Part shown: one piece after another, positions 30,401 to 58,453 of the stretch
Layout of the letters: each line of letters begins with the position of its first letter
Position numbering within the stretch: the stretch's first letter is position 1
Program-made: the position numbers and the translations under genes
Notes under the pieces: generated by a model
What the model was told of the DNA's origin: nothing
The model's database searches: none
What the model saw: only the letters and a program-made list of their open reading frames with translations
NCBI GenBank assembly: GCA_910584635.1
Contig: CAJUBA010000003.1
Span: 10,855 to 74,854 of the forward strand
DNA: 64,000 nt
Source: an uncultured Christensenella sp.
Lineage (GTDB): Bacteria > Bacillota > Clostridia > Christensenellales > UBA3700
Direction of reading: 5' to 3'

Positions 30401-30437
30401 TAAAATAAAAGAGCAGCGCAGAATTTACATTTGCTCT
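30401..30437 (-). terminator. Weak terminator candidate after the 1015-aa lipoprotein gene
   Basis: AGAGCA..16-nt loop..TGCTCT followed (minus sense) by TTTTATTTT. The stem is only 6 bp. Confidence 0.3.
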
Positions 30438-30450
30438 GAAAATTTTAGAA

Positions 30451-33498: not shown

Positions 33499-33501
33499 AA
33501 A

Positions 33502-35435: not shown

Positions 35436-35620
35436 TCCCTCTCCTTTGTTGCTTTTCGCTCCCAAATCGTGAATATAAATTTTATTATACTTTATTTATG
35501 CGCGCTCGTAACTATTTATATCAATAGTATATTTCAATTGTGCTATAATTAACATATATCGCATAAAATCAATATCGCGTCTTCCTATATCATATCAATT
35601 CAAGCATTAAAATTACGCTA

Positions 35621-35763
35621 GGTCAGTAAAGGTGTACATTTCTTGACCGTAATAATTTTCCCATATTTTACTATTTTTTACTATATTTCTACATAATAAG
35701 TATACAATAAAGACTTGTCGAATTCAAGATATTTAAGTCAGGAAATGTACACTTTTCTTGTAA
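35621..35763. promoter_or_regulatory. Candidate invertible promoter switch A (as assembled, the promoter faces the regulator/kinase/lipoprotein operon)
   Basis: Site a1 GGTCAGTAAA-GGTGTACA-TTTCTTGACC (35621-35648) and site a2 AGTCAGGAAA-TGTACACT-TTTCTTGTAA (35736-35763) are inverted relative to each other. They flank 87 bp containing a promoter. A homologous cassette lies at 44573-44715. Confidence 0.65.
35699..35727 (-). promoter_or_regulatory. Promoter TTGAAT-17-TATACT inside switch A, reading toward the response-regulator gene
   Basis: On the minus strand, TTGAAT (35727-35722), 17 nt, TATACT (35704-35699). Confidence 0.55.
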
Positions 35764-35819
35764 TTTTTCGCTATTTGTCGATTTTTTTTAACGTTTTTTT
35801 GATTTAGGCGACATTGCAT

Positions 35820-39654: not shown

Positions 39655-42600
39655 CTAACTCTTCCTCATGGAGCGTTGCTCTTTGATATAATCGCTGTAA
39701 CGTTCAATTTGGTCTTCACGTAGGTCTATCATCTCCTTCGCCGTCGCCAACGCTTGACTGTCTCCTACTATCAATTCCGTTTCCTTTACCTTTACTTTCG
39801 TTCCTTCGCTTCCCGCGTTCCTTCTGATGTCCTTCATATACTCGTCTTCCATCTTAAATAACGCTACTGTACAATCTTTCTTTATCGTCAGTTTTACCAA
39901 CGGATTTACAGATGACTGTCCCAGTAAGATATAGTACGTGGATTTCTTCTCCTTACACTTATCTTTACTCATTGCGTATTCTTTCAACGTATCAAAGAAC
40001 TTCTTTTGTTTTGCGGATAGTTTTGCGTACGCTTCGTCAAGAGTCAGTCTTGGAGCAACTGTCTTGGCTTTTGTCGTCGGCTTTTCCACAGGCAACGGTA
40101 CCGTCTTTTCTACAATCTTCTCTACCTCTTCCGGCACTTCGACCTTGACTTCTTTTACTACCTCTTTTTCTATTATCTTTTCCACAGGTACTTCCACTAT
40201 TTTTTCAATCGGCTTTTCTACTATCTTCTCTACTAATTTCTCCGTTTGTTGATTTGCCGTCAATTCCTGTATCTGTTTTATCAGCATCTCTTGATTCTTC
40301 AACAGTTGCTTTATTGTTTCGTCGTTTGTTACCGTCGCCGCTACTTCTTTCTCTATCACTCTTTCTACTTGCTGTTGCTTGCTTAATTTCTCTACTAATT
40401 TTTCTATTACCTCTTCGCTTACTCCTTCCTTCTCTTTCGATTGTTCAGAAATTTTTTGCATCATTATTTCATTCGCTTGCATTAGTCGGTCGAGTTTTTC
40501 TTCATTTTCACTGTATTGCGCCTGTTGCGGCAAGTACTGCTGCACGTTCGGCAACATTGCAGATACCGCGTCGTTTATCATACAGCGCATATCTTCCATT
40601 CCAACCGCCGGCTGTCCGCTATATCCGTAATTCTGTCCTTGCATATTATTGTTACCTCCAATCATACGCATTAACATCATCTTGTTGTATTCCTCTTTTG
40701 CCTCGTCTACTTCTTCTTCTATTTTTCCATAACGTTTTTTCTCTACTAGCATAAAGATTAGCGACAATACCGCTACGCCCATCAACACGCCCGCTATTAT
40801 CGTCCAGTTGGTCATACTCCAGCCAAACAAACCTATTCCGCTCATAGCGTAAAAAGTCCGGTATCTCTTCTCTATTAACTGCTTTGACTTCTTACACTTA
40901 TTCGCAAAACTTATTCCCTTCGCCGTAAACATCAAGATTAAGACTATGCTTACTCCGCTCGCTATTACCTGCCACCATTCTTTCAATATATCCAACACTT
41001 TATCGAAATCAACTGTTTGCGTCGGCTCTTTCGGGTCGTTTGTAGAATTGTTGTTATCCTCGCTCGGATAATACGGATTGTTCGGATCGTCCGGGTCAAA
41101 TATCTCTTCGTTCTCTTTTACTTCAAACTCTACCCACTCCGTCTCCGTACTTCCGTCTGCAAATATATAGTTGGTCTTATCCGTTATCACTGCTCGCACT
41201 TCATACTTGTTTCCGGGTTTCAAGTCCTTGAACTCCAATATGTTTCCGTCTATATCTCTGTATTCGTGCTTTATCCCCTTTATCTCGCTTGCGCTTACGC
41301 TCAACGACGGTGGATTGTGTTTTGTATTCCATACGTCGTTCTTTATCTCCATCCGCTTTATCTCATACTCTATTATCGCGACTCCGTCTACTACGTTCTC
41401 TCCGCTTAGGTAGTATCCTTCTACTCCTTCCTTTATCCTTATCTCTACTCTGTACTTTCCTACCTTCGTCGGCGCTTCTGCCAATGCCGTTGTTCCGTCT
41501 TTGTCGTAATACTCTATTTCAAAGTCGCTTTCGCTTAACGCTCCTTCTATCTTCAATTTAACATCTTGACTCTTTCCGTTGTACGTTAGTTCCGTCTTGC
41601 TTAGCGTTACTCCTATTCCCGTCGCGTTCTCTCCTACGCTAAACGGCGACGACAGTACGTTCTCTTTATCAAACTCTACGTCGTTTGCGTACATACTCTT
41701 TATTACCGCTTTCGTTACGTAGTATCTTACTTCGTTCTCTACTATCTCTATCTCGCTTTCGCTTAACGCTTCTCCTACTATCTCTTTCTTTGCATTATCC
41801 CATAAGTAATACTCGTACTCTACTACGTTCTTATCCTCTTTCAGTTTCTGTCTGTCATACTTCCCTTCGTAATTCTCGCTTTCCCATTCTACCTTTATTA
41901 CCAACTTCTCTATTGTCCAATTCATCTCCCATGAGAAGTCTTCGCTTCCGTTATAGGTATAGTTGTTTCCTTTTCCTCCTACTTGCGGCAGTTCGTAATT
42001 CTGTTCGTATCCGCTTTCCAATATAAACGTTACGCTTACGTTTCCGCTATCTCCTGCGTGCGCTCCCTCTCTTACTCCAGTATATCTTTCTACGCTCAAT
42101 CCTTCGGGCAAAGTCTTCTCGTCTATCTTCGCTTTCATTTCAGATACGTTGGTACTAAACGGTATCTTACCGTCATATTCCCACTTAACACCGGACAAGT
42201 CGAACTTAGCCTTGTCTATCGTCCACTCGATTGAGTACTCTTTTACGTTCGTAGGATTAGCCGTTTCTTTAAGTTTTATTGTTGTCTTATACTTTCCCGC
42301 ATTCTTTACCGTTTCTAACGCTTCTTCGCCGGAATCAGTCATGAGTACCGTTCTTATTCCATACTCTTCGTCTATCTCGTATCCGGTAGGCGCGCTGACC
42401 GTAAACGTATACGCTTTATCTTTGCTATATACTAACGCTTTATCCAGTTTTACTTCATACTGTCCTATCTCAGCGTCTTTTATCTGACCGCTTGGTTTTC
42501 CGTTAGCGTTTAATTTCCATCTCAACGTCGACTCGCTTCCTTCGTCTTTGACGTCCAAAGTAGCGGTCGGATCTATTTTTATCTCGTAATTTCCGTTTGT

Positions 42601-44553
42601 CGTCGTCGCTTTCAAATTATATTTAGTCGTTTCCAACAATGCGGTATCAAACGTAACCGTCTGAATATCCGCGCTTGCGTCTTCGTTGTTTATTAACTTG
42701 ATTTCGCCTGTTATCTCCGTATCTGGCAAATCTTTAGCCGTCGCGACAATCTTTATAGCAACTTCGTCGTCGTTTCTCGGTCTTTTGTCGCTTTGGGCGT
42801 TTAATTCCAAATTAAACTTTTTGCTGCTTCCTTTAATCGCCGTGAGACCTCCGCCTTCTCCGTTTAGGTCGCTTAAAGATATATAGACTTGCGCTTTGGT
42901 AATCTCAAATTCCAACTTGTCTTTTGCGTTTTTCCACATACAGTTTTTAGTATCTTTTAATTCCACCGTCAAAGCGTACTTGCCTACGTTTTTTTCGCTT
43001 ACTTGCTTTGTAGACGAACTGATTTCCGCGCCTTTATAACTTATCTTCACGTATTCCGCGTCATAGACAAGTCTGAAAGTTACGTTATCCCCGCCATTAT
43101 AAGTCTTTTGCGAAATTGCGTTGTAAAACGAAGGATAATCTACTTCTTTCTGAACGACGGTAAACTTTACCTTTTTCTCATCGCTATCCTCGCCTACTTG
43201 CCAATAATACTCCGACTTTGGCGTTACCCCTACATAGTATTCGCCTACGTCTTTGGGATTTGTCGAGAGAGGATTCAATGATTTGTCGTAAAACTTTACC
43301 GTTACCGATTGCGAATATTCTTGCGTATACCATTTCTCTCCCTGCAAATCAAGTTCCTTGCCCGCGTAACTTTTGACAACGTCTTGCGGAGCAGACAAGC
43401 CCTTTGTAGAATACTTATCCGCTTCCGTCAAATTAAAATGGAATGCAGGTCTTACTAAATGCGTATCGCTCGTTACTGTGTCCCAATACGATTCTCCGTT
43501 TTCAGTCAAAATCCACGCATGTATGCCGGTAGAGGTTGCGCCTGTTCTTGACCATATTCCCGAATCGTTTATTCTTAATTGACCGGGCATACCCCAAATA
43601 CCGGTCGCGGTATTTCCGTAACCCGTTTCGCAAAGTCCGGGAATCCAAAGATAGTCGTATTGCCAGTCGTAATATTGAGCGACTCTGTCCTGCACCTCGT
43701 ACGTTGTCGTAACGCCCCAATTATTTTCCACTTTAGCGCACGCGTCATTCAAAGCATTTTTTGCGCTGCCTCCGCTAAATAGGTTCCACGACTCCGTCTT
43801 CTGATAACCCACGTTCGTAGGCTTTACGATAAATTTCGTAATATTGCCTTTATAATTTTTATCAGTGAACAGAGAATAATTGTAATCGGGATCGGGATCT
43901 ATTACTTTCAATCCTGATTGCAGAGCGGTAGAATTGTAGTATATATCGACGGTGTTTCCATCCCGATCTTCTCCTTTGCCGTTGAGCAATTTGGATCTTA
44001 TATAACTTGTGCTGTAAACGCTCGTCGGATAATCAATTGATAAAGACGCATCTTTCCAAGTATGCCACAGCGAAGTATCTATCGGATTTTTTAACATCAG
44101 AGTTGCTATAACGTTGCCGTTATCGTCCAAAGTCAACGACGTAACGTACCATTCCATATTGCCTAGAATTACGCTTGTAAAACTTTCAGAGTCGTTTAAC
44201 GCGTAAATTTCCGTGGCGGTCTTTCCCGTTTTCAAACCTAAACCTGTGGTATCCGACGATTTTTCAGACGCTACGATTTTTACCGCTTCATAATCCGCGC
44301 CTTCCTGCCCGGTCAATTTGGAATAAAACTTGGTCATTTCCCTTCCGTCAAAAACCTTTTTGGTCATTTCCGCGTCGGAAGAAGAGAGCATCAATTCCGA
44401 CATTACGGTATCCGATACCGTTTGAATTTTAATATCTTCCCTAATGTTTAATTTATAAAAATCCGAAACAAACAAAGCGCTGAAAATATACAGCGTTAAA
44501 AGTACCGCTAATAATGTAAATACCAACTTGGCTTTTTTCTTTATTCTATTCAT
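39655..44553 (-). CDS. 1632-aa membrane-spanning surface protein: N-terminal anchor, DUF6273-like domain, Ig-like/MBG-like repeat array, 2-3 TM segments, ~430-aa cytoplasmic tail with E/K/V/I repeats
   Basis: N-terminal hydrophobic anchor. ..WSRTGATS..HLVRPAFHFNL is DUF6273-like. There are many ~90-aa beta-rich repeats (..YNGKSQDVKL.., ..YTYNGSEDF..), TM stretches WWQVIASGVSIVLILMF and WTIIAGVLMGVAVLSLIFMLV, then the EKIVEKPIEKIVEVPVEKIIEKEVVKEVKVEVPEEVEKIVEK repeats. Confidence 0.8.
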   Translation of the reverse strand: MNRIKKKAKLVFTLLAVLLTLYIFSALFVSDFYKLNIREDIKIQTVSDTVMSELMLSSSDAEMTKKVFDGREMTKFYSKLTGQEGADYEAVKIVASEKSSDTTGLGLKTGKTATEIYALNDSESFTSVILGNMEWYVTSLTLDDNGNVIATLMLKNPIDTSLWHTWKDASLSIDYPTSVYSTSYIRSKLLNGKGEDRDGNTVDIYYNSTALQSGLKVIDPDPDYNYSLFTDKNYKGNITKFIVKPTNVGYQKTESWNLFSGGSAKNALNDACAKVENNWGVTTTYEVQDRVAQYYDWQYDYLWIPGLCETGYGNTATGIWGMPGQLRINDSGIWSRTGATSTGIHAWILTENGESYWDTVTSDTHLVRPAFHFNLTEADKYSTKGLSAPQDVVKSYAGKELDLQGEKWYTQEYSQSVTVKFYDKSLNPLSTNPKDVGEYYVGVTPKSEYYWQVGEDSDEKKVKFTVVQKEVDYPSFYNAISQKTYNGGDNVTFRLVYDAEYVKISYKGAEISSSTKQVSEKNVGKYALTVELKDTKNCMWKNAKDKLEFEITKAQVYISLSDLNGEGGGLTAIKGSSKKFNLELNAQSDKRPRNDDEVAIKIVATAKDLPDTEITGEIKLINNEDASADIQTVTFDTALLETTKYNLKATTTNGNYEIKIDPTATLDVKDEGSESTLRWKLNANGKPSGQIKDAEIGQYEVKLDKALVYSKDKAYTFTVSAPTGYEIDEEYGIRTVLMTDSGEEALETVKNAGKYKTTIKLKETANPTNVKEYSIEWTIDKAKFDLSGVKWEYDGKIPFSTNVSEMKAKIDEKTLPEGLSVERYTGVREGAHAGDSGNVSVTFILESGYEQNYELPQVGGKGNNYTYNGSEDFSWEMNWTIEKLVIKVEWESENYEGKYDRQKLKEDKNVVEYEYYLWDNAKKEIVGEALSESEIEIVENEVRYYVTKAVIKSMYANDVEFDKENVLSSPFSVGENATGIGVTLSKTELTYNGKSQDVKLKIEGALSESDFEIEYYDKDGTTALAEAPTKVGKYRVEIRIKEGVEGYYLSGENVVDGVAIIEYEIKRMEIKNDVWNTKHNPPSLSVSASEIKGIKHEYRDIDGNILEFKDLKPGNKYEVRAVITDKTNYIFADGSTETEWVEFEVKENEEIFDPDDPNNPYYPSEDNNNSTNDPKEPTQTVDFDKVLDILKEWWQVIASGVSIVLILMFTAKGISFANKCKKSKQLIEKRYRTFYAMSGIGLFGWSMTNWTIIAGVLMGVAVLSLIFMLVEKKRYGKIEEEVDEAKEEYNKMMLMRMIGGNNNMQGQNYGYSGQPAVGMEDMRCMINDAVSAMLPNVQQYLPQQAQYSENEEKLDRLMQANEIMMQKISEQSKEKEGVSEEVIEKLVEKLSKQQQVERVIEKEVAATVTNDETIKQLLKNQEMLIKQIQELTANQQTEKLVEKIVEKPIEKIVEVPVEKIIEKEVVKEVKVEVPEEVEKIVEKTVPLPVEKPTTKAKTVAPRLTLDEAYAKLSAKQKKFFDTLKEYAMSKDKCKEKKSTYYILLGQSSVNPLVKLTIKKDCTVALFKMEDEYMKDIRRNAGSEGTKVKVKETELIVGDSQALATAKEMIDLREDQIERYSDYIKEQRSMRKS

Positions 44554-44572
44554 TTTTACCCCATTTTTTACG

Positions 44573-44715
44573 GGTCAGTAAAAGTGTACTTTTACTGACC
44601 GCGAGATATTGCCAAATGAAATTCATTATTGTATACTTATAGTGAAAAAATGCTCGTTTTTTTGAGTATTACAGCGTAAAATTTATTGGTCAGGAAATGT
44701 ACACTTTTTTTGGAA
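44573..44715. promoter_or_regulatory. Candidate invertible promoter switch B (as assembled, the promoter faces away from the 1632-aa gene)
   Basis: Site b1 GGTCAGTAAA-AGTGTACT-TTTACTGACC (44573-44600; 13-bp arms perfect) and site b2 GGTCAGGAAA-TGTACACT-TTTTTTGGAA (44688-44715) are inverted. They flank 87 bp homologous to the inner segment of switch A, but in the opposite orientation. Confidence 0.65.
44609..44637 (+). promoter_or_regulatory. Promoter TTGCCA-17-TATACT inside switch B, reading away from the 1632-aa gene
   Basis: TTGCCA at 44609-44614, 17 nt, TATACT at 44632-44637. The -10 context TTATTGTATACTTAT is identical to the minus-strand sequence of switch A. Confidence 0.55.
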
Positions 44716-44858
44716 TTATGTTAGATTTTGATTAAAATAGAAAAAATTTGACTATATTGCATGTTTTATGATTTGCGATAATATTAAAAATCTGTAATAA
44801 AATAAAATGCTCTGCTCTTTGAACAACGCTTTTTGTTTTTCTATATTTGTAAATATTT

Positions 44859-45338
44859 TTATTCTATTATTTTACAGACGTCTATCCATTTTTGATAGTT
44901 TGACGTCAATTCTAATTCCGATAAAGTCATTTTTATCGCGCTGTTAGAACTTCCGCAAGCGGGATAGATATGCGAAAATCTTTTCAAAGAAACATCGAGA
45001 TATACCTCTACCCCTTCGTTTATTCCAAAAGGACAAACCCCGCCGACTGCGTGTCCTATTCTGCTCTCCACCTGGTCAAAAGGAATCATCTTGGCTTTTG
45101 CGGAAAATTCCGCCTTATATTTTGAGTTGTCTATCTTACAATCGCCCGCCGCAACAATCAATACGGAACGCCCGTCGACAATAAAAGACAGTGTCTTCGC
45201 TATCTCTTCTTCTCTACATCCGACGGCAATAGCGGCGTCTTTGACCGTTGCCGACGAAACGTCAAATTCCAAAATTCTTTCTTCCATACAGTATTTTTTC
45301 AAATACTCTTTCGCTCTCATTAAAGACATATTACTCAC
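44859..45338 (-). CDS. YbaK/EbsC-family aminoacyl-tRNA deacylase domain protein
   Basis: ..KTLSFIVDGRSVLIVAAGDCKIDNSKYK..GHAVGGVCPFG.. is the typical YbaK/ProRS-editing domain core. Confidence 0.8.
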   Translation of the reverse strand: MSNMSLMRAKEYLKKYCMEERILEFDVSSATVKDAAIAVGCREEEIAKTLSFIVDGRSVLIVAAGDCKIDNSKYKAEFSAKAKMIPFDQVESRIGHAVGGVCPFGINEGVEVYLDVSLKRFSHIYPACGSSNSAIKMTLSELELTSNYQKWIDVCKIIE

Positions 45339-45457
45339 CTCTTACAAATAATTTTACTCTCTGCAAGACAAGAATTCAAGTATAAAGTTCAATATTCTTT
45401 TTATAAAACTGTTTCTATTAAAATAATATCACTGTAAAAATTTTACATAATAAAATA

Positions 45458-45471
45458 CGAACAAACGTTTG
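45458..45471. promoter_or_regulatory. LexA (SOS/Cheo) box upstream of dinB
   Basis: CGAACAAACGTTTG compared with the Firmicute consensus CGAAC-N4-GTTCG (one mismatch). It is embedded in the larger palindrome AAAATACGAACAAACGTTTGTATTTT (45452-45477). Confidence 0.7.
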
Positions 45472-45504
45472 TATTTTATTGTAAAACTATGCTATTATAT
45501 GACT

Positions 45505-46731
45505 ATGAAAAGAATATTACACTGCGACGCCAACAATTTTTACGCTTCGGTAGAATGTATGCTTGATCCGACGTTGAAAGATAAATTCGTAGCCGTTTCG
45601 GGTAATCCCGACAAACGGCATGGAATTATTTTGGCAAAAAATCAAAAAGCAAAGGAATGCGGAATAAAGACGGGCGAAGTTATTTGGGAGGCAAAACGCA
45701 AATGCCCTCAACTCGTGCTTGTTCCCCCGCAATACGATAAATACGTCGAATATTCAAATAAAATATTCGATATATACTGTCAATACACCGATAGAGTGGA
45801 ACCTTTCGGGATAGACGAATGTTGGTTGGACGTCAGCGGATCCATGCGACTTTTTCACAGCGCGGAAAATATAGCGGACGAACTCAGAGCGCGAATTAAA
45901 AAAGAAATCGGTATAACTATTTCCGTCGGAGTATCTTTCAACAAAGTCTTTGCCAAACTTGGTTCCGACATGAAAAAACCGGACGCTACGACTATAATAG
46001 ACGAAGATAATTTCAAGACTAAAGTTTGGCAGTTGGACGTAACCGATATGCTTATGATAGGACGGCGTACTGCGAAAAAATTAAATGAAATCGGAATAAA
46101 TACAATTGGGGATCTCGCAAAAGCAAATCCCGATATTTTAGAGCGCAAATTCGGAATCAACGGGCGCAAAATGTATGACAACGCAAATGGAGCCAACGAT
46201 GAAGAAGTCCGCCTTTACTATGACGCGCATGTACCAAAAAGTATCGGCAACTCGACTACTCTTCCCAAAGACATAACCAACCGCGCGGAAGCCAAAGCGG
46301 TAATTATGGCTTTAAGCGAAATGGTAGCGATAAGACTTCGCCGACATGATTTTGTAGCGGGAGGAATGCATTTGGGGATAAAATACAACGACCTTTCGTA
46401 TATAGGGAAACAGATAAAACTTCCTTTGAAAATCAACTCGGCAAATTCTCTTTGCGACTGCGCAATGCAGATTTACGATTCTTTCAGACTGATTCTGCCA
46501 ATCAGAGCGCTAAGCGTGTCGACGTTTGATTTAAGTTCCGGAAGCGAGAATATCCAACTTTCTCTTTTGGACGATATAGAAAAAAGCGACAAACTTTGCC
46601 GACTTGACAAGTCTTTGGACGAAATACGAAAAAAATATGGCTACGATGCATTAAAATCGGCGTCGCTTATGGAATATCCTTTTATCACGGACGGACTTGT
46701 AGACAGCGATTTTGTTCCTTTCAAAAAGTAA
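45505..46731 (+). CDS. dinB: DNA polymerase IV (Y-family, DinB)
   Basis: MKRILHCDANNFYASVE..VAVSGNPDKRHGIILA..VEPFGIDECWLDV..ISVGVSFNKVFAKLGSDMKKPD. Confidence 0.92.
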   Translation: MKRILHCDANNFYASVECMLDPTLKDKFVAVSGNPDKRHGIILAKNQKAKECGIKTGEVIWEAKRKCPQLVLVPPQYDKYVEYSNKIFDIYCQYTDRVEPFGIDECWLDVSGSMRLFHSAENIADELRARIKKEIGITISVGVSFNKVFAKLGSDMKKPDATTIIDEDNFKTKVWQLDVTDMLMIGRRTAKKLNEIGINTIGDLAKANPDILERKFGINGRKMYDNANGANDEEVRLYYDAHVPKSIGNSTTLPKDITNRAEAKAVIMALSEMVAIRLRRHDFVAGGMHLGIKYNDLSYIGKQIKLPLKINSANSLCDCAMQIYDSFRLILPIRALSVSTFDLSSGSENIQLSLLDDIEKSDKLCRLDKSLDEIRKKYGYDALKSASLMEYPFITDGLVDSDFVPFKK

Positions 46732-47888: not shown

Positions 47889-48011
47889 TTAGTTTTCTTC
47901 GAGATATCTTGTCGCTGCGGGTTGCGGTTTAATTCTCGGATTGAGAATATTAGCCTGTGGGGACGTGTTACTGACAGGGGCAACTGAATCTTTCAACAGA
48001 TAGTGAATCAT
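47889..48011 (-). CDS. 40-aa ORF forming a complete small transcription unit at the edge of the mobile element
   Basis: AGGAGAAAC lies before the ATG at 48011. Translates to MIHYLLKDSVAPVSNTSPQANILNPRIKPQPAATRYLEEN. It has its own promoter (48069-48098) and terminator (47841-47875). No recognisable family. Confidence 0.35.
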   Translation of the reverse strand: MIHYLLKDSVAPVSNTSPQANILNPRIKPQPAATRYLEEN

Positions 48012-48068
48012 TTTCTTGTTTCTCCTATTTGAAACTACATAGCAAAAATTTATTAACTATGTCCCTGT

Positions 48069-48098
48069 ATATTAGCACAAAACGAGTATTTATGTCAA
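48069..48098 (-). promoter_or_regulatory. Promoter TTGACA-18-TAATAT reading leftward out of the recombinase end
   Basis: On the minus strand, TTGACA (48098-48093), 18 nt, TAATAT (48074-48069). Confidence 0.5.
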
Positions 48099-48111
48099 AT
48101 ATTTTAATAGC

Positions 48112-48139
48112 AAAAAGACCGATTATTCGGTCTTTTTTT
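48112..48139. terminator. Bidirectional terminator immediately after the serine recombinase gene
   Basis: AAAAAGACCG-attatt-CGGTCTTTTT. Confidence 0.8.
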
Positions 48140-48144
48140 AGTCG

Positions 48145-49914
48145 TTATACAAAAATATGAGCCGTAATATCACGCCATTGATTGCGCCGTAACATACCTT
48201 TACGTTCTTTACGATATGCTCTTGCTTCATCAAATTCTACCGTAATAGTACATATCTCTCGGTAGTTATCTACCTGTTCTTTCTGATGCGGCAACAAGTT
48301 CAAATACCATGCAAACTCATCTTGTGTATAAGGTATAATACGGAATATTGCCTGTTCCAAAAATTGTCTATCTAATTTCTGTTGCGAAAAATCAACTTGC
48401 GTAGTAAGCAATTCACTTAACTGTCCAAAATCCATTTTGCCGCTTTGATCGTTTGAGTTCTGATTCTCATATTGCAAAATAGATTTTTCTATTGCTTCAA
48501 TTTCAACATTTACTTTTTGCCTATGTACTTGAAATTCTTCCTTGCTGATTTCGCCCTCCATTCGCATATTGGTTAAGTTGTCTAATTTCTTCTTTGCCTT
48601 ATCTAACTTTGAAAGCAACTCTTTACGTCTATCCAACTTTTGCTCTCTCTCATTGACATAGCAACTATTATATATATGGTATGCTTCGATAATTGCTTCT
48701 CTGTTATCACCCCACAAGGAACTAAAAATCTTCCGTGCCAATAATTCAAATTTCCAATCACATATCTCACTTAAATCGCAATATCCCTCTGATGCCACCC
48801 CCGAATCATCGCGTAAACGTTTTGAGCCATTGTTCAACTGATTATAGCACTTGTACCCATAAATAATTTCGCCGTTCAAATTAACTCGCCATTTATTCTT
48901 TCTCATTGCAGAGCCACAACGACACTTTAATTTATGCACCCATACATCTTCACTACTGTGATAGCCTGTTACATTACTACCAAAACGTCTATGAACCTCT
49001 GCGTGCTTTGATTCCCTGATCTCTTTACACTTCTCCCAAAGTTCTTCGGAAATAATAGGCTCAAAATCACCCTTGATATAAAGATGTGTACTTTCATCTC
49101 TGTTTATGATAGATTTTTGATCCAAGAAGTTATTACGGCAAGATTTTAGATAACATTTGTACCCTTTATAAGTTGCATTATGTAAAATGCGAGATATTTT
49201 AGTACATTCCCAACGAACAAGTCCCGAACCGTCTTTTCTCTGTCTTTGTACAAGTTCGCTAACTATCTTTTTGAAACCTAATCCTTGTGCATAAAGATTA
49301 TATATCAATCGCACCGTTTCCGCTTGTTCCTCATTTATAACGTAAGTGTCTCCAACTCTATCATAGCCGAGAATATTTCCGTTTCCATACAGCACACCTT
49401 TATCTCGGCTTATTTTTTGTCCTGCTCTCACACGCTCGGAAGTTTTACGGCTTTCCTCTTGTGCCAAAGTTGCCATAATTGTTAAACGCAATTCCCCGTC
49501 GTTGTCCATAGTCCAAATATTATCTTCAACAAAATAGACTTCAATTCCGTAATTCTTCAGCTCACGGGTAGTGATCAACGTGTCAACGGTGTTTCGCGCA
49601 AATCGGCAGACTTCGCGTGTAACAATTAAATCAAACTTTCGCTCTTTGGCATCGGCAAGCATTTCCAAAAACGCAGGTCTTTTCTTTGCTTGCGTACCGG
49701 TAATACCCTCATCAATATATTTCCGCAAAACCGTCCAATTAGAATGATACTTCGTTTGATCGTCATACCATTGCAACTGATTTTGCAACGCAGACAACTG
49801 CGCTTCATGTTCAGTGGAAACACGCCCGTAATATACAATTTTACGCGGTCTGTTCCTGTCTAAAACATTTACATTTGTAGGCATCACCATTCGATTTGTT
49901 CCGTAAAAATCCAT
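48145..49914 (-). CDS. Large serine recombinase (integrase)
   Basis: Resolvase catalytic domain (IVYYGRVSTEHEAQ..LIVTREVCRFARN), recombinase domain (..LGYDRVGDTYVINEEQAETVRLIY..), zinc ribbon (KCRCGSAM..YKCYN) and a C-terminal coiled coil. Confidence 0.92.
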   Translation of the reverse strand: MDFYGTNRMVMPTNVNVLDRNRPRKIVYYGRVSTEHEAQLSALQNQLQWYDDQTKYHSNWTVLRKYIDEGITGTQAKKRPAFLEMLADAKERKFDLIVTREVCRFARNTVDTLITTRELKNYGIEVYFVEDNIWTMDNDGELRLTIMATLAQEESRKTSERVRAGQKISRDKGVLYGNGNILGYDRVGDTYVINEEQAETVRLIYNLYAQGLGFKKIVSELVQRQRKDGSGLVRWECTKISRILHNATYKGYKCYLKSCRNNFLDQKSIINRDESTHLYIKGDFEPIISEELWEKCKEIRESKHAEVHRRFGSNVTGYHSSEDVWVHKLKCRCGSAMRKNKWRVNLNGEIIYGYKCYNQLNNGSKRLRDDSGVASEGYCDLSEICDWKFELLARKIFSSLWGDNREAIIEAYHIYNSCYVNEREQKLDRRKELLSKLDKAKKKLDNLTNMRMEGEISKEEFQVHRQKVNVEIEAIEKSILQYENQNSNDQSGKMDFGQLSELLTTQVDFSQQKLDRQFLEQAIFRIIPYTQDEFAWYLNLLPHQKEQVDNYREICTITVEFDEARAYRKERKGMLRRNQWRDITAHIFV

Positions 49915-49924
49915 AATATTCTCC

Positions 49925-50095
49925 TTATGCCGCTTGTTTATTTCGGCTTAATTTAGTATTACTTTTTTGACTTCGTATATATCTGTCCTTGCTTTTTAGA
50001 ACACGCTCGTATGTCCCCAAATTCAACTGCCCTTTATGGTACATTGCTTCTAAAAGCAAATAGCCAATATACTTACTATCCAATATCTTCTTCAC
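49925..50095 (-). CDS. 56-aa basic protein upstream of the recombinase (possible directionality/accessory factor)
   Basis: GTG at 50095 behind GAGAGGGG. Translates to VKKILDSKYIGYLLLEAMYHKGQLNLGTYERVLKSKDRYIRSQKSNTKLSRNKQAA. The track's longer version starts on a TTG inside repeat copy 1. Confidence 0.45.
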   Translation of the reverse strand: MKKILDSKYIGYLLLEAMYHKGQLNLGTYERVLKSKDRYIRSQKSNTKLSRNKQAA

Positions 50096-50108
50096 TAATT
50101 CCCCTCTC

Positions 50109-50183
50109 AAAAAAATAGAGAGGGTTTGAATTGCTTTTTCGCAAACCAAACCCTCTCTGTTGCCCAACGGATTAAATGATTTT
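50109..50183 (-). repeat. Leader/terminator module, copy 1
   Basis: Minus sense: AAAATCATTTAATCCGTTGGGCAAC, then hairpin AGAGAGGGTTTG..CAAACCCTCTCT, then ATTTTTTTG. It is directly followed by the RBS and GTG of the 56-aa gene. Confidence 0.7.
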
Positions 50184-50228
50184 ACTTTCTTGCTTTTAAT
50201 GATAATTTACATTACCACCTCTACACTT

Positions 50229-50309
50229 AAAAATAAGAAAAGGATTTGAAATGCTTTGTGCAAATCAAACCCTCTCTGTTACCCAACGGATTAAATGATT
50301 TCTTATTTA
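50229..50309 (-). repeat. Leader/terminator module, copy 2
   Basis: Minus sense: TAAATAAGAAATCATTTAATCCGTTGGGTAAC, then hairpin AGAGAGGGTTTGA..TCAAATCCTTTTCT (keeps pairing through G-U), then TATTTTT. It starts 4 nt after the fic stop. Confidence 0.65.
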
Positions 50310-50313
50310 GTTG

Positions 50314-51222
50314 TTACATCTCTAAATCAGAGCCGCCACTGCTTCCCCCACCGCCGTCATCGTCAGTTTCACTCTGTGATAAACCTCCGCCTGCGTATAT
50401 AGACAGCCATAGTTTCATACTTGAAAGCTCGCTTTCAGCAAGCAGTTTTGCCATACCTTCTGTCTTGCTTTCAGGGCGCGTACTGTATTTTTCTTTGTCC
50501 CTATAAGAGCTTATTGCGGCATAGTACCTATCTCTTTCTTCATAACGAATATCGACAGGTAAAAGTCCCAACGAAATCATTTCATAGATTAAAAGCAATC
50601 TGCCCGTTCTTCCGTTACCGTCTATAAACGGGTGTATGTTCTCAAACTCTATATGATGCTTTGCAAGGTTATGGAACAAGTCAACCCAATTAAACTGTCC
50701 TTTTTCCGCAAGTTCGGCGTGATGCCTACAATCCACCTGCAATTCTTCTGAATACGCTTTCATCTTTTCAGGCACTTGCGTAGGCGGACAAGGTGTGTAC
50801 ACTATACGCGACAGACTTCCCACATAGTTTTGTATCTTTCTGTATTTACCCGCTTCGTCATCGCCACGCAATACAAAGCTGTGAATTTTCTTTATAAAGT
50901 CCTCTGTTATCGGCTTTTTCTCTTTAAGCGATTCATACAGAAAATCAAACGCTTGCTTGTACCCAATAATATCTTCGCTTTCGCGCAGAGAGTGCGCACC
51001 TGTTACAATTCCCTTTTCGATAAGCAACTTCGTTTCGTCAAACGTAAATGTATTGCCCTCTATGGCGTTTGAATTGTGCGTTGCGCTGATTGAAAACTCA
51101 TTATTGAAATATTTAAGTTCACTCGCCGACAGCGGACGTACCTTTTTCATAAGAGCATAGCACTCGTCTATCTCATTTATGATGTCTATGTACTTTTGCT
51201 GTTCTTCCATTTTTTTAGACAT
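50314..51222 (-). CDS. Fic family protein (AMPylase-type Fido domain) with an intramolecular inhibitory motif
   Basis: Active-site HPFIDGNGRTGRLL. N-terminal SNAIEGN matches the (S/T)xxxE(G/N) inhibitory helix of class II Fic proteins. Gly/Asp/Ser-rich tail ending DLEM. Confidence 0.9.
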   Translation of the reverse strand: MSKKMEEQQKYIDIINEIDECYALMKKVRPLSASELKYFNNEFSISATHNSNAIEGNTFTFDETKLLIEKGIVTGAHSLRESEDIIGYKQAFDFLYESLKEKKPITEDFIKKIHSFVLRGDDEAGKYRKIQNYVGSLSRIVYTPCPPTQVPEKMKAYSEELQVDCRHHAELAEKGQFNWVDLFHNLAKHHIEFENIHPFIDGNGRTGRLLLIYEMISLGLLPVDIRYEERDRYYAAISSYRDKEKYSTRPESKTEGMAKLLAESELSSMKLWLSIYAGGGLSQSETDDDGGGGSSGGSDLEM

Positions 51223-51245
51223 AGCCCTGCTCTCCTTTGCTTTAT

Positions 51246-51274
51246 ATTATACTCATTTTGCACTGAATAGTCAA
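51246..51274 (-). promoter_or_regulatory. Consensus promoter TTGACT-17-TATAAT dedicated to fic
   Basis: On the minus strand, TTGACT (51274-51269), 17 nt, TATAAT (51251-51246), then AAGGAGAG and the ATG at 51222. Confidence 0.7.
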
Positions 51275-51276
51275 GA

Positions 51277-51690
51277 CTAATAAGCACGCACAAAACTCTT
51301 TTTAACAAGCCGAAAGCCTTTTCTGAAAATAATCGGCAGAGTTTCGACATTTAGCTCTCCGTCTTTCAACGATATTACTTTCACGCCGTTCTCCGTAAGA
51401 AAATTAACTTCGTGCGTTATCTCTATCGGGGAATTGCCAAGCACATCAAGTTCAGGAACAAGCAATACCTCAAATTCACGGTACTTTGCCTGCAACCTTA
51501 AATTGCTGTATGTAAGCGCGTCCATTTTACCGCTTTCCAATATCGTACGCATCGCCGATAGCCCATTTGCTTTTGTATATTCGGTCAATACTTCGCTTTG
51601 GCTTTGCAATTCCGCACGATCCCCTGCTACCGAACGACAATATAATATTGCCTTCTTCGCTGTCCCTTTACTTACCGCTTGATTGTTCAT
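51277..51690 (-). CDS. 137-aa resolvase-catalytic-domain-like protein, probably catalytically degenerate, no DNA-binding domain
   Basis: AILYCRSVAGDRAELQSQ..EVLLVPELDVLGN..GVKVISL follows the serine-recombinase N-domain layout, but the YxRxS serine register is shifted (YCRSV) and the DRLGR arginines are absent. Start is at the ATG at 51690 behind AGGAGG. Confidence 0.55.
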   Translation of the reverse strand: MNNQAVSKGTAKKAILYCRSVAGDRAELQSQSEVLTEYTKANGLSAMRTILESGKMDALTYSNLRLQAKYREFEVLLVPELDVLGNSPIEITHEVNFLTENGVKVISLKDGELNVETLPIIFRKGFRLVKKSFVRAY

Positions 51691-51705
51691 ATACGCTGAC
51701 CTCCT

Positions 51706-51785
51706 ATAAAATAAAAGAGGGTTTGATTGCTTTTGCAAATCAAACCCTCTCTGTTACCCAACGGATTAAATGATTTCCTATTTAA
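51706..51785 (-). repeat. Leader/terminator module, copy 3 (between a promoter and the resolvase-like gene)
   Basis: Minus sense: TAAATAGGAAATCATTTAATCCGTTGGGTAAC, then hairpin AGAGGGTTTGATTTGC-aaaa-GCAATCAAACCCTCT, then TTTATTTT, then AGGAGG and ATG. Confidence 0.7.
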
Positions 51786-51793
51786 CTGCAATC

Positions 51794-51822
51794 ATTATAA
51801 CATTTTTATTCTGGTTTGTAAA
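51794..51822 (-). promoter_or_regulatory. Promoter TTTACA-17-TATAAT immediately upstream of module copy 3
   Basis: On the minus strand, TTTACA (51822-51817), 17 nt, TATAAT (51799-51794). Confidence 0.6.
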
Positions 51823-51848
51823 GGGACCCGAAGCATTTTCTTCAAAAA

Positions 51849-54800
51849 TTAAGCAACTTCCGCTTCGTCCTCGTCGTCATCTTCATTGAGTATTTCTACA
51901 ATAGGTTTTGCTTCCGTATCTTCGTCCAAGACTATTGGTGTTTCCTGCTTGCCCAAGTCAAGTTCCGCATCTATCGCCGCAAGCTCGTTACGCAACTGCT
52001 CTGCTTCTTCTGCCTGCTCAAACGGTTTATCTACTTGCTCTTTTGCCGCCGCCAAATCTTCTTCGATACTTGCCTTTTCCGATTGTGAACGGCGCATTTG
52101 AAGATCAAAATCATCCAAACCGTTTTCCAATCGCATGATTGTTCCCACATCGCTATCAGATATTGCAATATCATACTCGCCTGCGCCTATAAGTTTGACT
52201 GAATATGTGTCGCCCTTTTTTGCCTGCGGAACAATCTTGAATCCTTTTATAAATCCGACATTTTTACCAACATACTCGCCAGACTTTACAACTCGAATCA
52301 ACAACGCACCTGCATCTTTTCTTTCTTCGTAACTGTTTTTGCCGATACGAATTAAATCCTTATCATGTTCGTTACGAAGTTGAATATCGTCCTGCAAGTT
52401 CTTTATTTTTACTTCACGAGCGTTTATTCTTTCAGGTGCGTGATAAATCTGCGCCTGTAAAGCATATCGGTTATCACGGTAAACTTTTTCCAAATCACTC
52501 AACTGTCCTAACCGCATCTCGATTTCCATTTTTCTCTTGATTTTCGGGTTATCCGAAGTTATGGCTTTTATTTCGGCAAACGATAATGTTGCATCGTCAA
52601 TATCTTCCGCAACTCGTACCGATAAATCGCCACGGTTGATTTGTGATATAAACCGCTGCTTCGTTTCCAAAATCTGATATGAGTACGCATCGAATGTACG
52701 CTTCGTAACATAGGTAAACAGATATACTTCTTTGTTCTCGTTACCCTGTCTTACTATGCGCCCCTCACGCTGTTCCAAGTCGCTTGGTCTGAACGGTGTG
52801 TCCAAGTGATGCAACGCTATTAACTTGTTCTGAAAGTTTGTACCCGCACCACACTTTTCGGTAGAGCCGAGAAACACTCGAACTTCGCCGTTCCTTACCC
52901 TGTCGAAAATATCTTGCTTCTGCTGATCGGTTTTGGCTTCGTGAACGTAGGCGATTTCTTCTTCGGGTATTCCGCACTCGATTAGTTTGCGCTTAATATC
53001 GTTGTACACATCGAAGTCCTGTTCGGGGTTATAATCGCCGTACATTTTCTTTGGGGTTGACATATCACAGAATACAACCTGCGTACAACGCTGTTCTGCC
53101 GTATCCGACCAAATTTTATAGATATTATCTACACAACGGTTAATCTTACTGTTGCTATCGTCGGGTATCGTCGAATCAAAGCATCTCGGATCAAGCGCAA
53201 TCATTTTGCCGTCATGGGTAACGCATAGCATATTATCTTCCCACGGCTCAACCGCGCCCGCAGATATTTTCTCTGAACGTTCAACTATCTGATCGTTCAA
53301 TTCCAATATCGTGTCCGTCGGCTCTAACTGCTCAACAATCTTTTTTGCTTCCGGCACAGGCAAGTTCAGCATATCCGCCGTTTTAACGTCTGCGAAACTG
53401 CGATACATTTTCAAGAGTTCGGGCAAGTTCGTAAACTTCGCAACCCTTGTTCTCGTTCTGTAACCCTGACCGCTCGGCGCAAGTTCCAACGCCGTTATTG
53501 TTTCGGTGTATAACGCCGCCCACGAATCGAAAAATTGTAACCCGACTTCCCTTAAACCGTTTCTCTGCAAATAGGTCTGCAACGTGTACATCTCGACAAG
53601 TGAGTTGCTTATAGGCGTACCCGTCGCAAAGACTACACCTCTGTCGCCGCCGCGTACTTCGCCTATGTATTCGCACTTCAAGTCCATATCCGATGAACGT
53701 TGCGACATAGCTCTGCTTATGCCTGAAACATTGTTCATTTTCGTAAAGATAAACTTGTTCTTGTACTTATGCGCTTCGTCTACGAAAATATAATCTACGC
53801 CCAAATCCTCGAACTGCAACAAATCGTCTTTCTTTTCTGCACTCGTCAATTTTTCAAGCTGCGCTCTTTTATTTTTCAAGGTGCGTTCCAAGTCTTTAAT
53901 ACGCAATCTTTCGCCCCTTTCATCTTTTGTCTGACGAATACCTATCTCGATTTCGGCTATTTCTCTGTTCAGTCTTTCTTCCTGTCTTTGCCGTGAAATG
54001 GGTATCTTCTCAAAACTCGACATAGCGATAACTACCGCGTCCCAATCTCCCGTTGCCACCTTTGCGACAAACCTTTTACGGCTCGTCTTTTCAAAGTCTT
54101 TCTTTGTTGCCATAAGCACGTTGGCGTTTGGATAGAGAGTTCTGAACTCGTTAGCCCATTGAACGACCAAGTGATTAGGCACAACGATTATAGGCTTCTT
54201 TGCCGTACCGCACTCTTTGAGCTTCATACAGGCTGCCGCAATCTCGAATGTCTTTCCTGCGCCTACCGAATGATGCAGCAATACGTTGTTGCCTTGCAAC
54301 ATTCTCGCAACTGCATCTTTCTGATACGGCTTCAATGTAATTTCGGGATTCATGCCCGGAAACTCTAAATAGCTTCCGTCGAACTGCGGTACAACCGTTG
54401 TGTTGTATATTTCGTTGTATTTATTTACAAGGTGTTCTCGTCTTTGCGGTTCGTCGAATATCCACCGCTTGAACTCGTCGTATATCTTTCTTTGCCTTTC
54501 ACGAACTGCGATAGTTTCTTTCTTGTTCGTTACGCGCTTCTTCTTGCCGTCCTCCTCAACTTCGTCCGTTATTGTCGGTGTTTGCTGATTAAGGCAACGC
54601 TCGAACACCTGAAATGCGTCCATTCTTTCCGTTCCGAATACAGAACGTGCTTTTACGCTTTGGCGCATCCATGCAGGTCTGTCAACTCGCCATTCGCCCG
54701 TTATAGCGTTAAACACGACTTCAACGTAGTTGGTATAAGCCGGATTAACATCAAGCAGTTCGCAAATGAACTGCTTATAGTATTTTGTATCAACCCAATT

Positions 54801-57662: not shown

Positions 57663-57680
57663 TATCCCCTCTGTCTTTTC

Positions 57681-58202: not shown

Positions 58203-58206
58203 AACG

Positions 58207-58452: not shown

Positions 58453-58453
58453 A

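What the first reader, a model, noticed from the sequence alone, without database searches (positions are those of the whole stretch)
44573..44715. Sister switch B is in the opposite orientation (OFF as assembled) directly in front of the 1632-aa surface protein gene
Seen in the sequence. Site b1 is GGTCAGTAAA-AGTGTACT-TTTACTGACC, a perfect 13-bp-arm palindrome that ends 19 nt before the ATG at 44553. Site b2 is GGTCAGGAAA-TGTACACT-TTTTTTGGAA. AAAAGTGTACTTTTACTGACC matches the reverse complement of GGTCAGGAAATGTACACTTTT at 19 of 21 positions. The 87-bp interior carries TTGCCA-17-TATACT on the plus strand, reading away from the gene. The 15-mer TTATTGTATACTTAT around the -10 lies 25 nt from b1 here (plus strand, 44626-44640). 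In switch A it lies 25 nt from a2 on the minus strand (35696-35710). The two cassettes are therefore mirror images with respect to their downstream genes. I can find no other promoter between b1 and the start codon, so expression of the giant gene should depend on flipping. Shared sites imply one recombinase and a coordinated, phase-variable surface repertoire.
Basis: partly seen in the sequence, partly recalled or inferred. Interest (0 to 1): 0.85.

Follow-up and report, generated by a model that had tools for sequence, protein, structure and literature searches.

The report
Invertible promoter before giant surface gene
A 143-bp flip-flop DNA cassette carrying a promoter sits, switched off in this assembly, just in front of a giant membrane-anchored surface-protein gene; other assemblies of the same bacterium carry it flipped on, and related gut Clostridia have at least 7-15 complete copies of the same switch per genome, each genome also encoding a small serine invertase next to one of them.

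Summary
Two 28-bp sites (44573-44600 and 44688-44715) flank an 87-bp segment. That segment holds the best sigma-70-like promoter of the region, and it points away from the 1632-aa gene.

The segment does invert. Of 16 other assemblies covering this locus, 14 match the window (OFF). Two (L025, L187) carry the segment reverse-complemented, with the inner half-sites exchanged exactly. This confines the crossover to the 10 bp AAAAGT-GT-AC.

The same cassette recurs in four related uncultured Clostridia MAGs: 27-34 sites per genome and 45 complete cassettes. It is nearly always about 20 nt upstream of a homologous 1300-1800-aa protein. Centre-to-centre spacing is 114-116 bp, or 104-105 bp. Six cassettes are ON and 39 OFF.

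In three of those four genomes, and on further metagenome contigs, a 205-aa small serine recombinase is encoded divergently beside one cassette. It is Sin/Bin3-like and is not in the Mpi family. That cassette's promoter points into the recombinase gene when "OFF".

The large serine recombinase at 48 kb belongs to a mobile element and is not the invertase. The invertase gene of this species was not located, and expression was not tested.

Verdict: a real phase-variation switch, and a new member of a known kind.

The parts
44573..44600 (.). Gene-proximal recombination site b1. It is a full palindrome, GGTCAGTAAAAGT-GT-ACTTTTACTGACC. The outer half is 44573-44585, the centre GT is 44586-44587, and the inner half is 44588-44600.
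   Evidence: The outer seven positions (G/A)GTCAG(G/T) have GTCAG invariant in 60 of 60 'full' sites of the family.
44601..44687 (.). Invertible interior (87 bp). The whole flipped unit runs centre to centre, 44587-44701 (115 bp).
   Evidence: It is reverse-complemented in L025 and L187 relative to the window, with the flanks unchanged.
44609..44637 (+). Sigma-70-like promoter TTGCCA-17-TATACT. The -35 hexamer lies 8 nt from the inner edge of b1. It reads away from the giant gene, so the switch is OFF as assembled.
   Evidence: 10 of 12, best in the region. The -35 and -10 hexamers sit at the same offset in all 47 distinct interiors, while the spacer sequences differ.
44649..44670 (+). Short palindrome or stem-loop (ATGCTC-loop-GAGTAT core) about 12 nt downstream of the -10, near the 5' end of the predicted transcript.
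   Evidence: In the window copy z is only -1.1. Across 47 interiors a hairpin of differing sequence sits at the same place: mean z is -2.1, and 68% are below -1.5.
44688..44715 (.). Gene-distal site b2, GGTCAGGAAATGT-AC-ACTTTTTTTGGAA. The inner half is 44688-44700 and the centre AC is 44701-44702. The outer half, 44703-44715, reads TTCCAAAAAAAGT on the minus strand.
   Evidence: The outer half TT(C)(C)AA(A)AAAAGT is conserved in 57-66 of 66 distal sites of the family.
44554..44572 (-). 19-nt leader with a ribosome-binding site (GGGGT, 44558-44562) between b1 and the start codon.
   Evidence: The same leader and RBS (AAAATGGGGTAAAAATG-like) follow the full site in most paralogous loci.
39655..44553 (-). 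Controlled gene: a 1632-aa protein. It has an N-terminal signal anchor, an external region of about 1150 aa, two more hydrophobic segments (about 1193-1217 and 1247-1273), and an E/K-rich tail of about 370 aa.
   Evidence: It is homologous end to end (27-42% identity) to the proteins downstream of cassettes in sister genomes. The only Pfam hit is a sub-threshold MBG_3 match.
35621..35763 (.). Sister cassette A (a1 35621-35648, a2 35736-35763, 115 bp centre to centre). Its promoter TTGAAT-17-TATACT is on the minus strand and reads into the response-regulator/histidine-kinase operon, so it is ON.
   Evidence: It is in the same orientation in 10 of 10 other assemblies.
44859..45329 (-). Upstream neighbour on the same strand: a YbaK/tRNA-editing-domain gene. 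It is followed by a weak hairpin and a U-run (about 44800-44830) that may stop read-through into the cassette.
   Evidence: This is inference only.

Best explanation
Switch B is a phase-variation switch of the invertible-promoter (inverton) type.

A site-specific recombinase pairs the two 28-bp sites and exchanges strands within the central AAAAGT-GT-AC. This reverses the 115 bp between the site centres.

In the window's orientation the only good promoter points away from the 1632-aa gene, so the gene is OFF. After inversion the promoter lies next to the distal site. It then reads through the rest of the interior, through site b1 and through the 19-nt leader into the gene, giving a 5' UTR of about 90 nt (ON).

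The enzyme is most probably a small serine recombinase of about 205 aa, encoded elsewhere in this genome. Orthologues in three of the four sister genomes, and on further metagenome contigs, sit divergently next to one cassette.

The same enzyme would serve switch A and every other cassette, giving each cell its own subset of expressed giant surface proteins.

Shown: the anatomy, the inversion at this very locus, the exact exchange of half-sites, the multi-locus family, and the link between cassettes and the giant gene family.

Inferred: promoter activity, OFF/ON expression, the identity of the recombinase in this species, and the serine (2-bp centre) mechanism.
For: Anatomy and significance.

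Inversion at this locus:
- L025 (GCA_949092515.1) and L187 (ERZ17808734) carry the interior reverse-complemented between unchanged flanks. Fourteen other assemblies match the window.
- L187 is the window's own strain type. Both inner-half polymorphisms (position 3 A/T, position 7 C/A) moved with the segment, while the outer halves stayed. This is the pattern expected of conservative recombination within 10 bp around the centre.

Family:
- The site pattern gave 92 hits among 185,579 species genomes. About 83 come from four uncultured Clostridia MAGs, and about 6 look like chance.
- There are 45 complete cassettes, 6 ON and 39 OFF. The same interior subfamilies occur in both orientations.
- Centre-to-centre spacing is 114-116 bp in 45 of 47 cassettes and 104-105 bp in 2, which is about 11 or 10 helical turns.
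- In 29 of 38 evaluable loci, the full site is followed 9-25 nt later by the ATG of a giant homologous protein.

Recombinase:
- Small serine recombinases lie 86-100 nt outside the distal site in L062, L067, L095, L099, L168-L170 and the P0007 loci.
- They match Pfam Resolvase at 2e-29. The best solved relative is Bin3/Sin at 4e-30.
- The cassettes next to them also flip between samples. L169 is ON and L170 OFF. The P0007 cassette is ON in 5 and OFF in 20, and 4 contigs end exactly at the inner edge of the distal site.

Site architecture: two dyad-symmetric 13-bp half-sites around a 2-bp centre, inverted between partner sites. This is the layout of serine-recombinase crossover sites (established knowledge of hix, gix and res site I).
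Against: - There are no read-level data. Each assembly shows only the majority orientation in its sample.
- There are no transcription data. The promoter is a consensus match supported by positional conservation.
- The invertase orthologue of this species was not found. It is not in the window, and the closest abundant candidate (the P0007 cluster) could not be tied to this genome.
- The 10-bp crossover interval would also fit a tyrosine recombinase with a 6-bp overlap.
- The ybaK-like gene lies upstream on the same strand with only a weak terminator-like hairpin after it. Some read-through expression in the OFF state cannot be excluded.
- Some related cassettes have a palindromic AT centre, so the centre dinucleotide alone does not set polarity there.
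Confidence: 0.82

Rival explanations
1. The cassette is invertible, but a tyrosine recombinase (RecV- or Tsr-like) encoded elsewhere flips it. The neighbouring serine recombinases in sister genomes would then be unrelated passengers.
For: The crossover interval (10 bp) also fits a 6-bp overlap region. In the best-studied Firmicute, C. difficile, promoter switches use the tyrosine recombinase RecV (own knowledge). The invertase of this species was not located.
Against: No tyrosine recombinase was detected in roughly 0.5 Mb of sequence around about 90 cassette loci, using XerD, FimB and Cre seeds. A conserved serine recombinase (85-100% identical between species) sits at a fixed distance from a cassette in three of the four sister genomes and on further metagenome contigs. 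The sites are palindromic right up to a 2-bp centre.
Confidence: 0.08
2. The large serine recombinase encoded 3.4 kb away in the window (48145-49914) flips switches A and B.
For: It is the only intact recombinase in the window and it is close to switch B.
Against: The identical protein lies at the end of a mobile element (Fic, SNF2/methylase, TraG) inserted in many unrelated contexts. Most strains that carry switch B lack the element, including L025, where B is flipped. The cassette-bearing sister loci contain no such gene.
Confidence: 0.02
3. Inversion occurs but does not gate the giant gene. Transcription would come mainly from upstream read-through (ybaK promoter) or an unrecognised promoter, and the cassette would only modulate levels or drive the divergent side.
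For: ybaK is co-oriented upstream and only a weak terminator-like hairpin follows it. At invertase-adjacent cassettes the 'OFF' promoter clearly has a second target.
Against: Only 19 nt separate b1 from the ATG. The cassette keeps the same fixed geometry in front of dozens of paralogous genes whose upstream neighbours are unrelated. In the OFF orientation the gene-sense strand presents a hairpin followed by a T-rich run, which may block read-through.
Confidence: 0.07
4. The apparent flips are assembly artefacts caused by the inverted repeats, and the repeats are static regulatory palindromes.
For: Many contigs break at cassettes, which shows that assemblers struggle there.
Against: The repeats (21-28 nt) are shorter than usual assembly k-mers. 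Flips were seen in independent assemblies at three different loci, always with exact reciprocal exchange of the half-site polymorphisms.
Confidence: 0.01

Closest known systems
Bacteroides fragilis Mpi system: one serine invertase flipping the promoters of seven capsular-polysaccharide loci, 13 regions in all (Coyne et al. 2003, as summarised in PMC4747536)
   Same: One small serine recombinase is encoded at one place and acts on many dispersed promoter cassettes that share inverted repeats. It controls surface architecture in a gut commensal. Most loci can be ON or OFF independently.
   Different: The phylum differs (Clostridia). The recombinase is not in the Mpi family (NCBIfam 49 bits against a cut-off of 272). 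The site sequence differs. The targets are single giant protein genes, not polysaccharide operons. The invertible unit of 115 bp appears shorter than those described for B. fragilis (own recollection). The promoter is sigma-70-like. The invertase gene itself sits in the firing line of one cassette.
Salmonella Hin/hix flagellar phase variation, and the Gin/Cin/Pin family
   Same: A serine invertase acts on sites built from two dyad-symmetric half-sites around a 2-bp centre, with an A-tract next to the centre. A promoter is carried on the invertible segment.
   Different: In Hin the segment is about 1 kb, contains hin and needs a Fis-bound enhancer. Here the segment is 115 bp, the recombinase gene is outside it, and no enhancer is evident. 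The protein is closer to Sin/Bin3 (4e-30) than to Gin (1e-14). Many loci are involved rather than one.
Clostridioides difficile RecV switches (cwpV, flgB and others)
   Same: A Firmicute uses one recombinase for several short invertible regulatory segments. One of these lies upstream of a large cell-surface protein (CwpV).
   Different: RecV is a tyrosine recombinase. There are about 7 switches per genome. The cwpV switch acts through a terminator in the leader rather than by carrying the promoter (own knowledge).
E. coli fimS with orientational control of fimE
   Same: Recombinase expression is coupled to the orientation of the switch it acts on. This is the proposal here for the invertase-adjacent cassette.
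   Different: FimB and FimE are tyrosine recombinases. The coupling there works through the fate of the fimE transcript, not through the invertible promoter driving the recombinase gene (own knowledge).
Sin/Bin3 small serine recombinases of staphylococcal plasmids and Tn552
   Same: They are the closest relatives with solved structures. They share the same domain layout, with a catalytic Ser in YARVSSxDQ and a C-terminal HTH.
   Different: They are resolvases acting on multi-subsite res sites in direct repeat. Here single crossover sites lie in inverted repeat.

Membership tests
Invertible promoter (inverton) phase-variation switch | A short DNA segment flanked by inverted repeats | tested here: met
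   A 21-nt inverted repeat at 90% flanks 87 bp, and each arm is part of a 28-bp site.
Invertible promoter (inverton) phase-variation switch | Both orientations exist in natural populations of the same organism | tested here: met
   L025 and L187 are flipped and 14 assemblies match the window. The half-site polymorphisms are exchanged reciprocally.
Invertible promoter (inverton) phase-variation switch | A promoter inside the segment that faces the controlled gene in one orientation only | tested here: inconclusive
   There is a consensus match (10 of 12) at a position conserved in 47 distinct interiors. No transcription data are available.
Invertible promoter (inverton) phase-variation switch | A dedicated site-specific recombinase | tested here: inconclusive
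   A conserved small serine recombinase lies beside one cassette in three of the four sister genomes and on further metagenome contigs. It is not in the window and was not located for this species.
Invertible promoter (inverton) phase-variation switch | Expression of the downstream gene follows orientation | not testable with these tools
   This needs RNA-seq, 5'-RACE or a reporter.
Mpi-family master DNA invertase system (Bacteroidales) | The recombinase scores above the NCBIfam NF009949 equivalog cut-off | tested here: not met
   49 bits (L062 invertase) and 37 bits (P0007) against a cut-off of 272.
Mpi-family master DNA invertase system (Bacteroidales) | One recombinase gene and many dispersed promoter cassettes with a shared repeat | tested here: met
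   27-34 sites per sister genome, with one or two invertase genes among the loci held. This shows that the system works like Mpi, not that it belongs to that family.
Hin/Gin-type invertase system | Small serine recombinase (Resolvase catalytic domain plus C-terminal HTH) | tested here: met
   Pfam Resolvase at 2e-29 and the catalytic motif YARVSSSDQ.
Hin/Gin-type invertase system | Recombinase gene and a Fis-dependent enhancer inside or beside a roughly 1-3-kb invertible segment | tested here: not met
   The segment is 115 bp and the gene is outside it. Fis dependence is not testable here.
Hin/Gin-type invertase system | Crossover at a 2-bp centre between dyad-symmetric half-sites | tested here: inconclusive
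   The sites have a 13-2-13 layout, with centre GT inverted to AC in the partner site. The crossover maps to a 10-bp interval that contains the centre.
RecV-type tyrosine-recombinase switches (C. difficile) | Tyrosine recombinase as the invertase | tested here: not met
   None was detected near about 90 cassette loci with XerD, FimB and Cre seeds, whereas serine recombinases were found. The rest of the genomes was not searched.

The most novel reading that the evidence does not exclude
The window shows two members of an undescribed genome-wide switch system in a clade of uncultured gut Clostridia. In it, one Sin/Bin3-like serine invertase would flip 15 or more helically phased 115-bp mini-cassettes per genome, each gating a giant surface protein. 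The invertase gene would itself be transcribed from the neighbouring cassette's promoter only when that cassette is 'OFF'. Cells would then alternate between a 'shuffling' state (invertase made) and a 'locked' state (invertase silent, neighbouring giant gene on).
Probability: 0.35. Interest if true: 0.65.

Novelty: new member of a known kind. Interest (0 to 1): 0.5.

Why it matters
Promoter inversion is textbook biology, so the principle is not new. This family does offer several useful things.

- It is a well-defined, sequence-predictable set of switches in uncultured mouse, human and animal gut Clostridia. In one survey of cultured gut strains, Clostridia-like genomes had a median of only 3 invertons (PMC11892184).
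- It controls an unannotated family of 1300-1800-aa surface proteins that may make up several per cent of these small genomes. Most copies are silent. That is the signature of antigenic or phage-receptor variation.
- The cassettes are compact, only 115 bp between crossover points, and uniform. Their orientation can therefore be read directly from short reads in existing metagenomes.
- The short, phase-locked spacing and the invertase-facing promoter give testable questions about how a serine recombinase synapses such a small loop, and about feedback on switching rate.

Tried and rejected
1. The large serine recombinase at 48145-49914 as the invertase. Rejected: it is the integrase of a mobile element found identical in unrelated contexts, and most strains with switch B lack it.

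2. The recombinase-like ORF at 8393-9612. It is a degraded remnant without a catalytic domain, next to tRNA-Glu.

3. JGI metagenome scans. The two-site pattern gave nothing, and the single-site pattern gave 27 hits that look like chance. The family seems absent from that collection.

4. Finding the invertase of this species. The P0007 cluster (88% identical to the L095 invertase, abundant in mouse-gut assemblies) comes from the same study series as some window-species contigs. No shared sample or MAG could be shown, and its own cassette has a different core, GTATAG. P0013 (76% identical) has no cassette nearby.

5. Function of the giant protein. There were no Pfam, NCBIfam or PDB sequence matches beyond a sub-threshold MBG_3 hit. 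Only 10 word-sharing homologues were found, all unnamed. The AlphaFold model of residues 30-480 had pLDDT 42, so no fold search was run.

6. Literature searches for this site, this clade or these MAG names. Nothing specific turned up.

7. Contig ends at cassettes as proof of heterogeneity. I treat this only as suggestive, because the cassettes are also dispersed repeats that break assemblies.

Full report
**1. Observation**

- The region reads exactly as described.
- Site b1 (44573-44600) has perfect 13-nt arms around the dinucleotide GT (I8). It ends 19 nt before the ATG (44553, minus strand) of a 1632-aa ORF.
- Site b2 (44688-44715) has the same inner half and centre in inverted orientation (AC), and a divergent outer half.
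- The b1/b2 repeat is 21 nt at 90%, with 87 nt between the arms (I1).
- TTGCCA-17-TATACT (44609-44637, + strand) scores 10 of 12, the best promoter-like match between 44300 and 45500. It points away from the gene.
- The motif is far above chance: 10 hits against 0.88 expected. The strong matches lie only in cassettes A (35621-35763) and B.
- The shared 15-mer and its 25-nt offsets are as stated.

**2. The segment really inverts**

I looked up exact copies of neighbouring proteins in public assemblies. This gave 16 other assemblies that cover switch B.

- Fourteen have the window's orientation.
- L025 (GCA_949092515.1) and L187 (ERZ17808734) have the interior reverse-complemented between unchanged flanks, so the promoter reads into the giant gene.
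- L187 is the window's own sequence type. In the window the inner half-sites are ACATTTCCTGACC (distal) and ACTTTTACTGACC (proximal). In L187 they have changed places, and the outer halves are untouched.
- The crossover therefore lies between outer-half position 7 and inner-half position 3, within AAAAGT-GT-AC.
- The repeats are shorter than assembly k-mers, and the exchange is exactly reciprocal, so this is not an assembly artefact.
- Switch A is in the window's (ON) orientation in all 10 other assemblies. A and B therefore do not obviously switch together.

**3. A large family**

- The 20-nt site pattern was scanned over one genome for each of 185,579 species. It gave 92 loci.
- About 83 come from four uncultured Clostridia MAGs (CAMWIL01, CAMXSN01, JAIEEW01, JAIEDA01), with 27-34 sites each.
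- Three loci come from more distant relatives, and about six look like chance.
- JGI metagenomes gave only chance-like hits.
- The four MAGs hold 45 complete cassettes, and all have the window's design.
- The gene-proximal site is a full palindrome. Its outer positions are (G/A)GTCAG(G/T), with GTCAG invariant in 60 of 60.
- The distal site has the outer half TTCCAAAAAAAGT, conserved in 57-66 of 66.
- The -35 hexamer lies 8 nt from a site edge.
- Centre-to-centre spacing is 114-116 bp in 45 of 47 cassettes and 104-105 bp in the other two. That is about 11 or 10 helical turns. The interiors have diverged into several sequence subfamilies while keeping this length, which suggests a looping or phasing constraint (inference).
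- The same interior subfamilies occur in both orientations. Six cassettes are ON and 39 OFF.
- Most interiors carry a short hairpin of varying sequence at a fixed place just after the -10 (mean z -2.1). Its role is unknown. It could be a 5'-terminal stem-loop in the ON transcript, or a weak terminator for read-through in the OFF orientation.

**4. What the cassettes control**

- In 29 of 38 evaluable loci the full site is followed 9-25 nt later by an RBS and the ATG of a very long ORF. Many of these ORFs start MDIRKRKIKG followed by a hydrophobic segment.
- The window's 1632-aa protein aligns end to end with these proteins at 27-42% identity.
- It has an N-terminal signal anchor, about 1150 external residues, two further hydrophobic segments and an E/K-rich tail.
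- No curated family, solved structure or named homologue matches it, and a structure model failed.
- 'Surface protein' is therefore reasonable, but its function is unknown.

**5. The recombinase**

- The window's only intact recombinase is a large serine recombinase at 48145-49914. It is the integrase of a mobile element found identical in many unrelated contexts, and most strains with switch B lack the element.
- A second recombinase-like ORF (8393-9612) is a remnant.
- Searching the ORFs of all cassette loci with Hin and Gin sequences found small serine recombinases of 204-211 aa directly beside cassettes in L062, L067, L095 and L099.
- These match Pfam Resolvase at 2e-29 and carry the catalytic motif YARVSSSDQ.
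- They are 85-100% identical across species.
- They are closest to Bin3/Sin among solved structures (4e-30, against Gin at 1e-14).
- They fall far below the Mpi-family cut-off (49 bits against 272).
- Each gene is divergent from the giant gene and starts 86-100 nt outside the distal site.
- In L062 the only consensus-grade promoter upstream of the invertase gene is the cassette's own promoter in its 'OFF' orientation.
- These invertase-adjacent cassettes also flip between samples. L169 is ON and L170 OFF. For the P0007-type cassette, 5 are ON and 20 OFF, and four contigs end exactly at the inner edge of the distal site.
- Related cassettes keep the arms and the 115-bp spacing but have other cores: GTATAG and GTATAC, with centre AT.
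- I could not locate the invertase gene of the window's species.

**6. Mechanism proposed**

- A dimer of the small serine recombinase binds each 28-bp site.
- The two sites, 115 bp apart, synapse. This probably needs the AT-rich, phased interior and a DNA-bending protein (inference).
- Strands are exchanged at the central dinucleotide and the promoter is reversed.
- In the ON state the promoter abuts the A-rich distal site and flank, which may act as an UP element (inference). It would then produce an mRNA leader of about 90 nt.
- In the OFF state the promoter fires outward.
- Because every cassette uses the same sites, one enzyme can set each independently. This would give a combinatorial, mostly silent repertoire.

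**7. Comparison with known systems**

- The system works like the B. fragilis Mpi system, where one serine invertase inverts 13 regions including 7 capsule promoters (PMC4747536). It is not a member of that family.
- Site architecture resembles Hin/Gin. However, the segment is very short, the recombinase gene lies outside it, and no enhancer is evident.
- C. difficile RecV is the nearest Firmicute analogue but is a tyrosine recombinase (own knowledge).
- A survey of cultured gut strains found a median of 3 invertons per Clostridia-like genome. It also found that invertases near invertons are generally not positioned to be driven by them (PMC11892184). The density seen here and the invertase-facing promoter are therefore unusual, although the latter is unproven.

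**8. Verdict**

The finding is real and correctly interpreted. It is a new member of a known kind of system, with some features that could make it a distinctive variant if confirmed.

Noticed in passing
window 47900-64000: This is a mobile element: large serine recombinase 48145-49914, Fic 50314-51222, resolvase fragment 51277-51738 and a 1937-aa SNF2/methylase protein 51849-57662. It is inserted beside the 287-aa lipoprotein gene. The identical recombinase occurs in many unrelated contexts, and most strains of this species lack the element, with a PPDK gene there instead.
   Followed up: yes
window 8359-9612: A degraded large-serine-recombinase remnant lies on the minus strand. It keeps only the Zn-ribbon and C-terminal part and is frameshifted. 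It abuts tRNA-Glu (8359-8433), which looks like the scar of an old integration.
   Followed up: partly
window 26338-35763: Switch A is ON in the window and in 10 of 10 other assemblies. It heads an operon of a response regulator, a histidine kinase and two large proteins (1015 and 1269 aa). Those two proteins have no Pfam hits and are not homologous to the giant family behind the other cassettes.
   Followed up: partly
L062 3241-4090; also L067, L095, L099, L148-L157, L168-L183, L193-L202: The small serine invertase gene lies 86-100 nt outside the distal site of one cassette, divergent from the giant gene. That cassette's promoter therefore points into the invertase gene when the giant gene is OFF. 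No other consensus promoter was found in the spacer of L062.
   Followed up: partly
L148-L157, L172-L183, L193-L202 (P0007-type); L168: Some cassettes keep the same arms and the 115-bp spacing but have a different core: GTATAG or GTATAC, with a palindromic AT centre, instead of GTGTAC. These may be separate compatibility groups for one enzyme family.
   Followed up: partly
L091 1-1400 (JAIEDA010000031.1): A 377-aa reverse transcriptase (Pfam RVT_1, 6.5e-15) starts 178 nt downstream of a full site whose cassette is cut by the contig end. It may be a retroelement or DGR-type gene under switch control.
   Followed up: partly
window 35764-35790, and the outer flank of about half of the cassettes in L029-L120: A conserved A-rich flank, AAAAAAATCGACAAATAGCAAAAAA, lies just outside the distal site. 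Other cassettes, including switch B, share a different flank (TAGTCAAATTTTTTCTATTTTAATCAAAAT...). Its function is unknown; it may be an UP element or an accessory site.
   Followed up: no
window 44716-46731: In the OFF orientation the switch B promoter points antisense through the ybaK-like gene (44859-45329, minus strand) and toward dinB (45499-46731, plus strand). Whether any transcript gets that far is unknown.
   Followed up: no
L029-L120, L151, L153, L181, L183, L190: Many contigs of the sister MAGs and metagenome assemblies begin or end inside or exactly at the edge of a cassette. This fits mixed orientations, or repeat-induced breaks, in the source samples.
   Followed up: partly
L041 257-370, L048 5349-5475, L129 1-150: More distant Clostridia/Eubacteriales MAGs and one metagenome contig have paired sites with the same GTGTAC/GTACGC core and similar arms, but different spacing (84-116 bp). 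In L129 the adjacent ORF starts VAKYAYVRA, which may be a serine recombinase.
   Followed up: no
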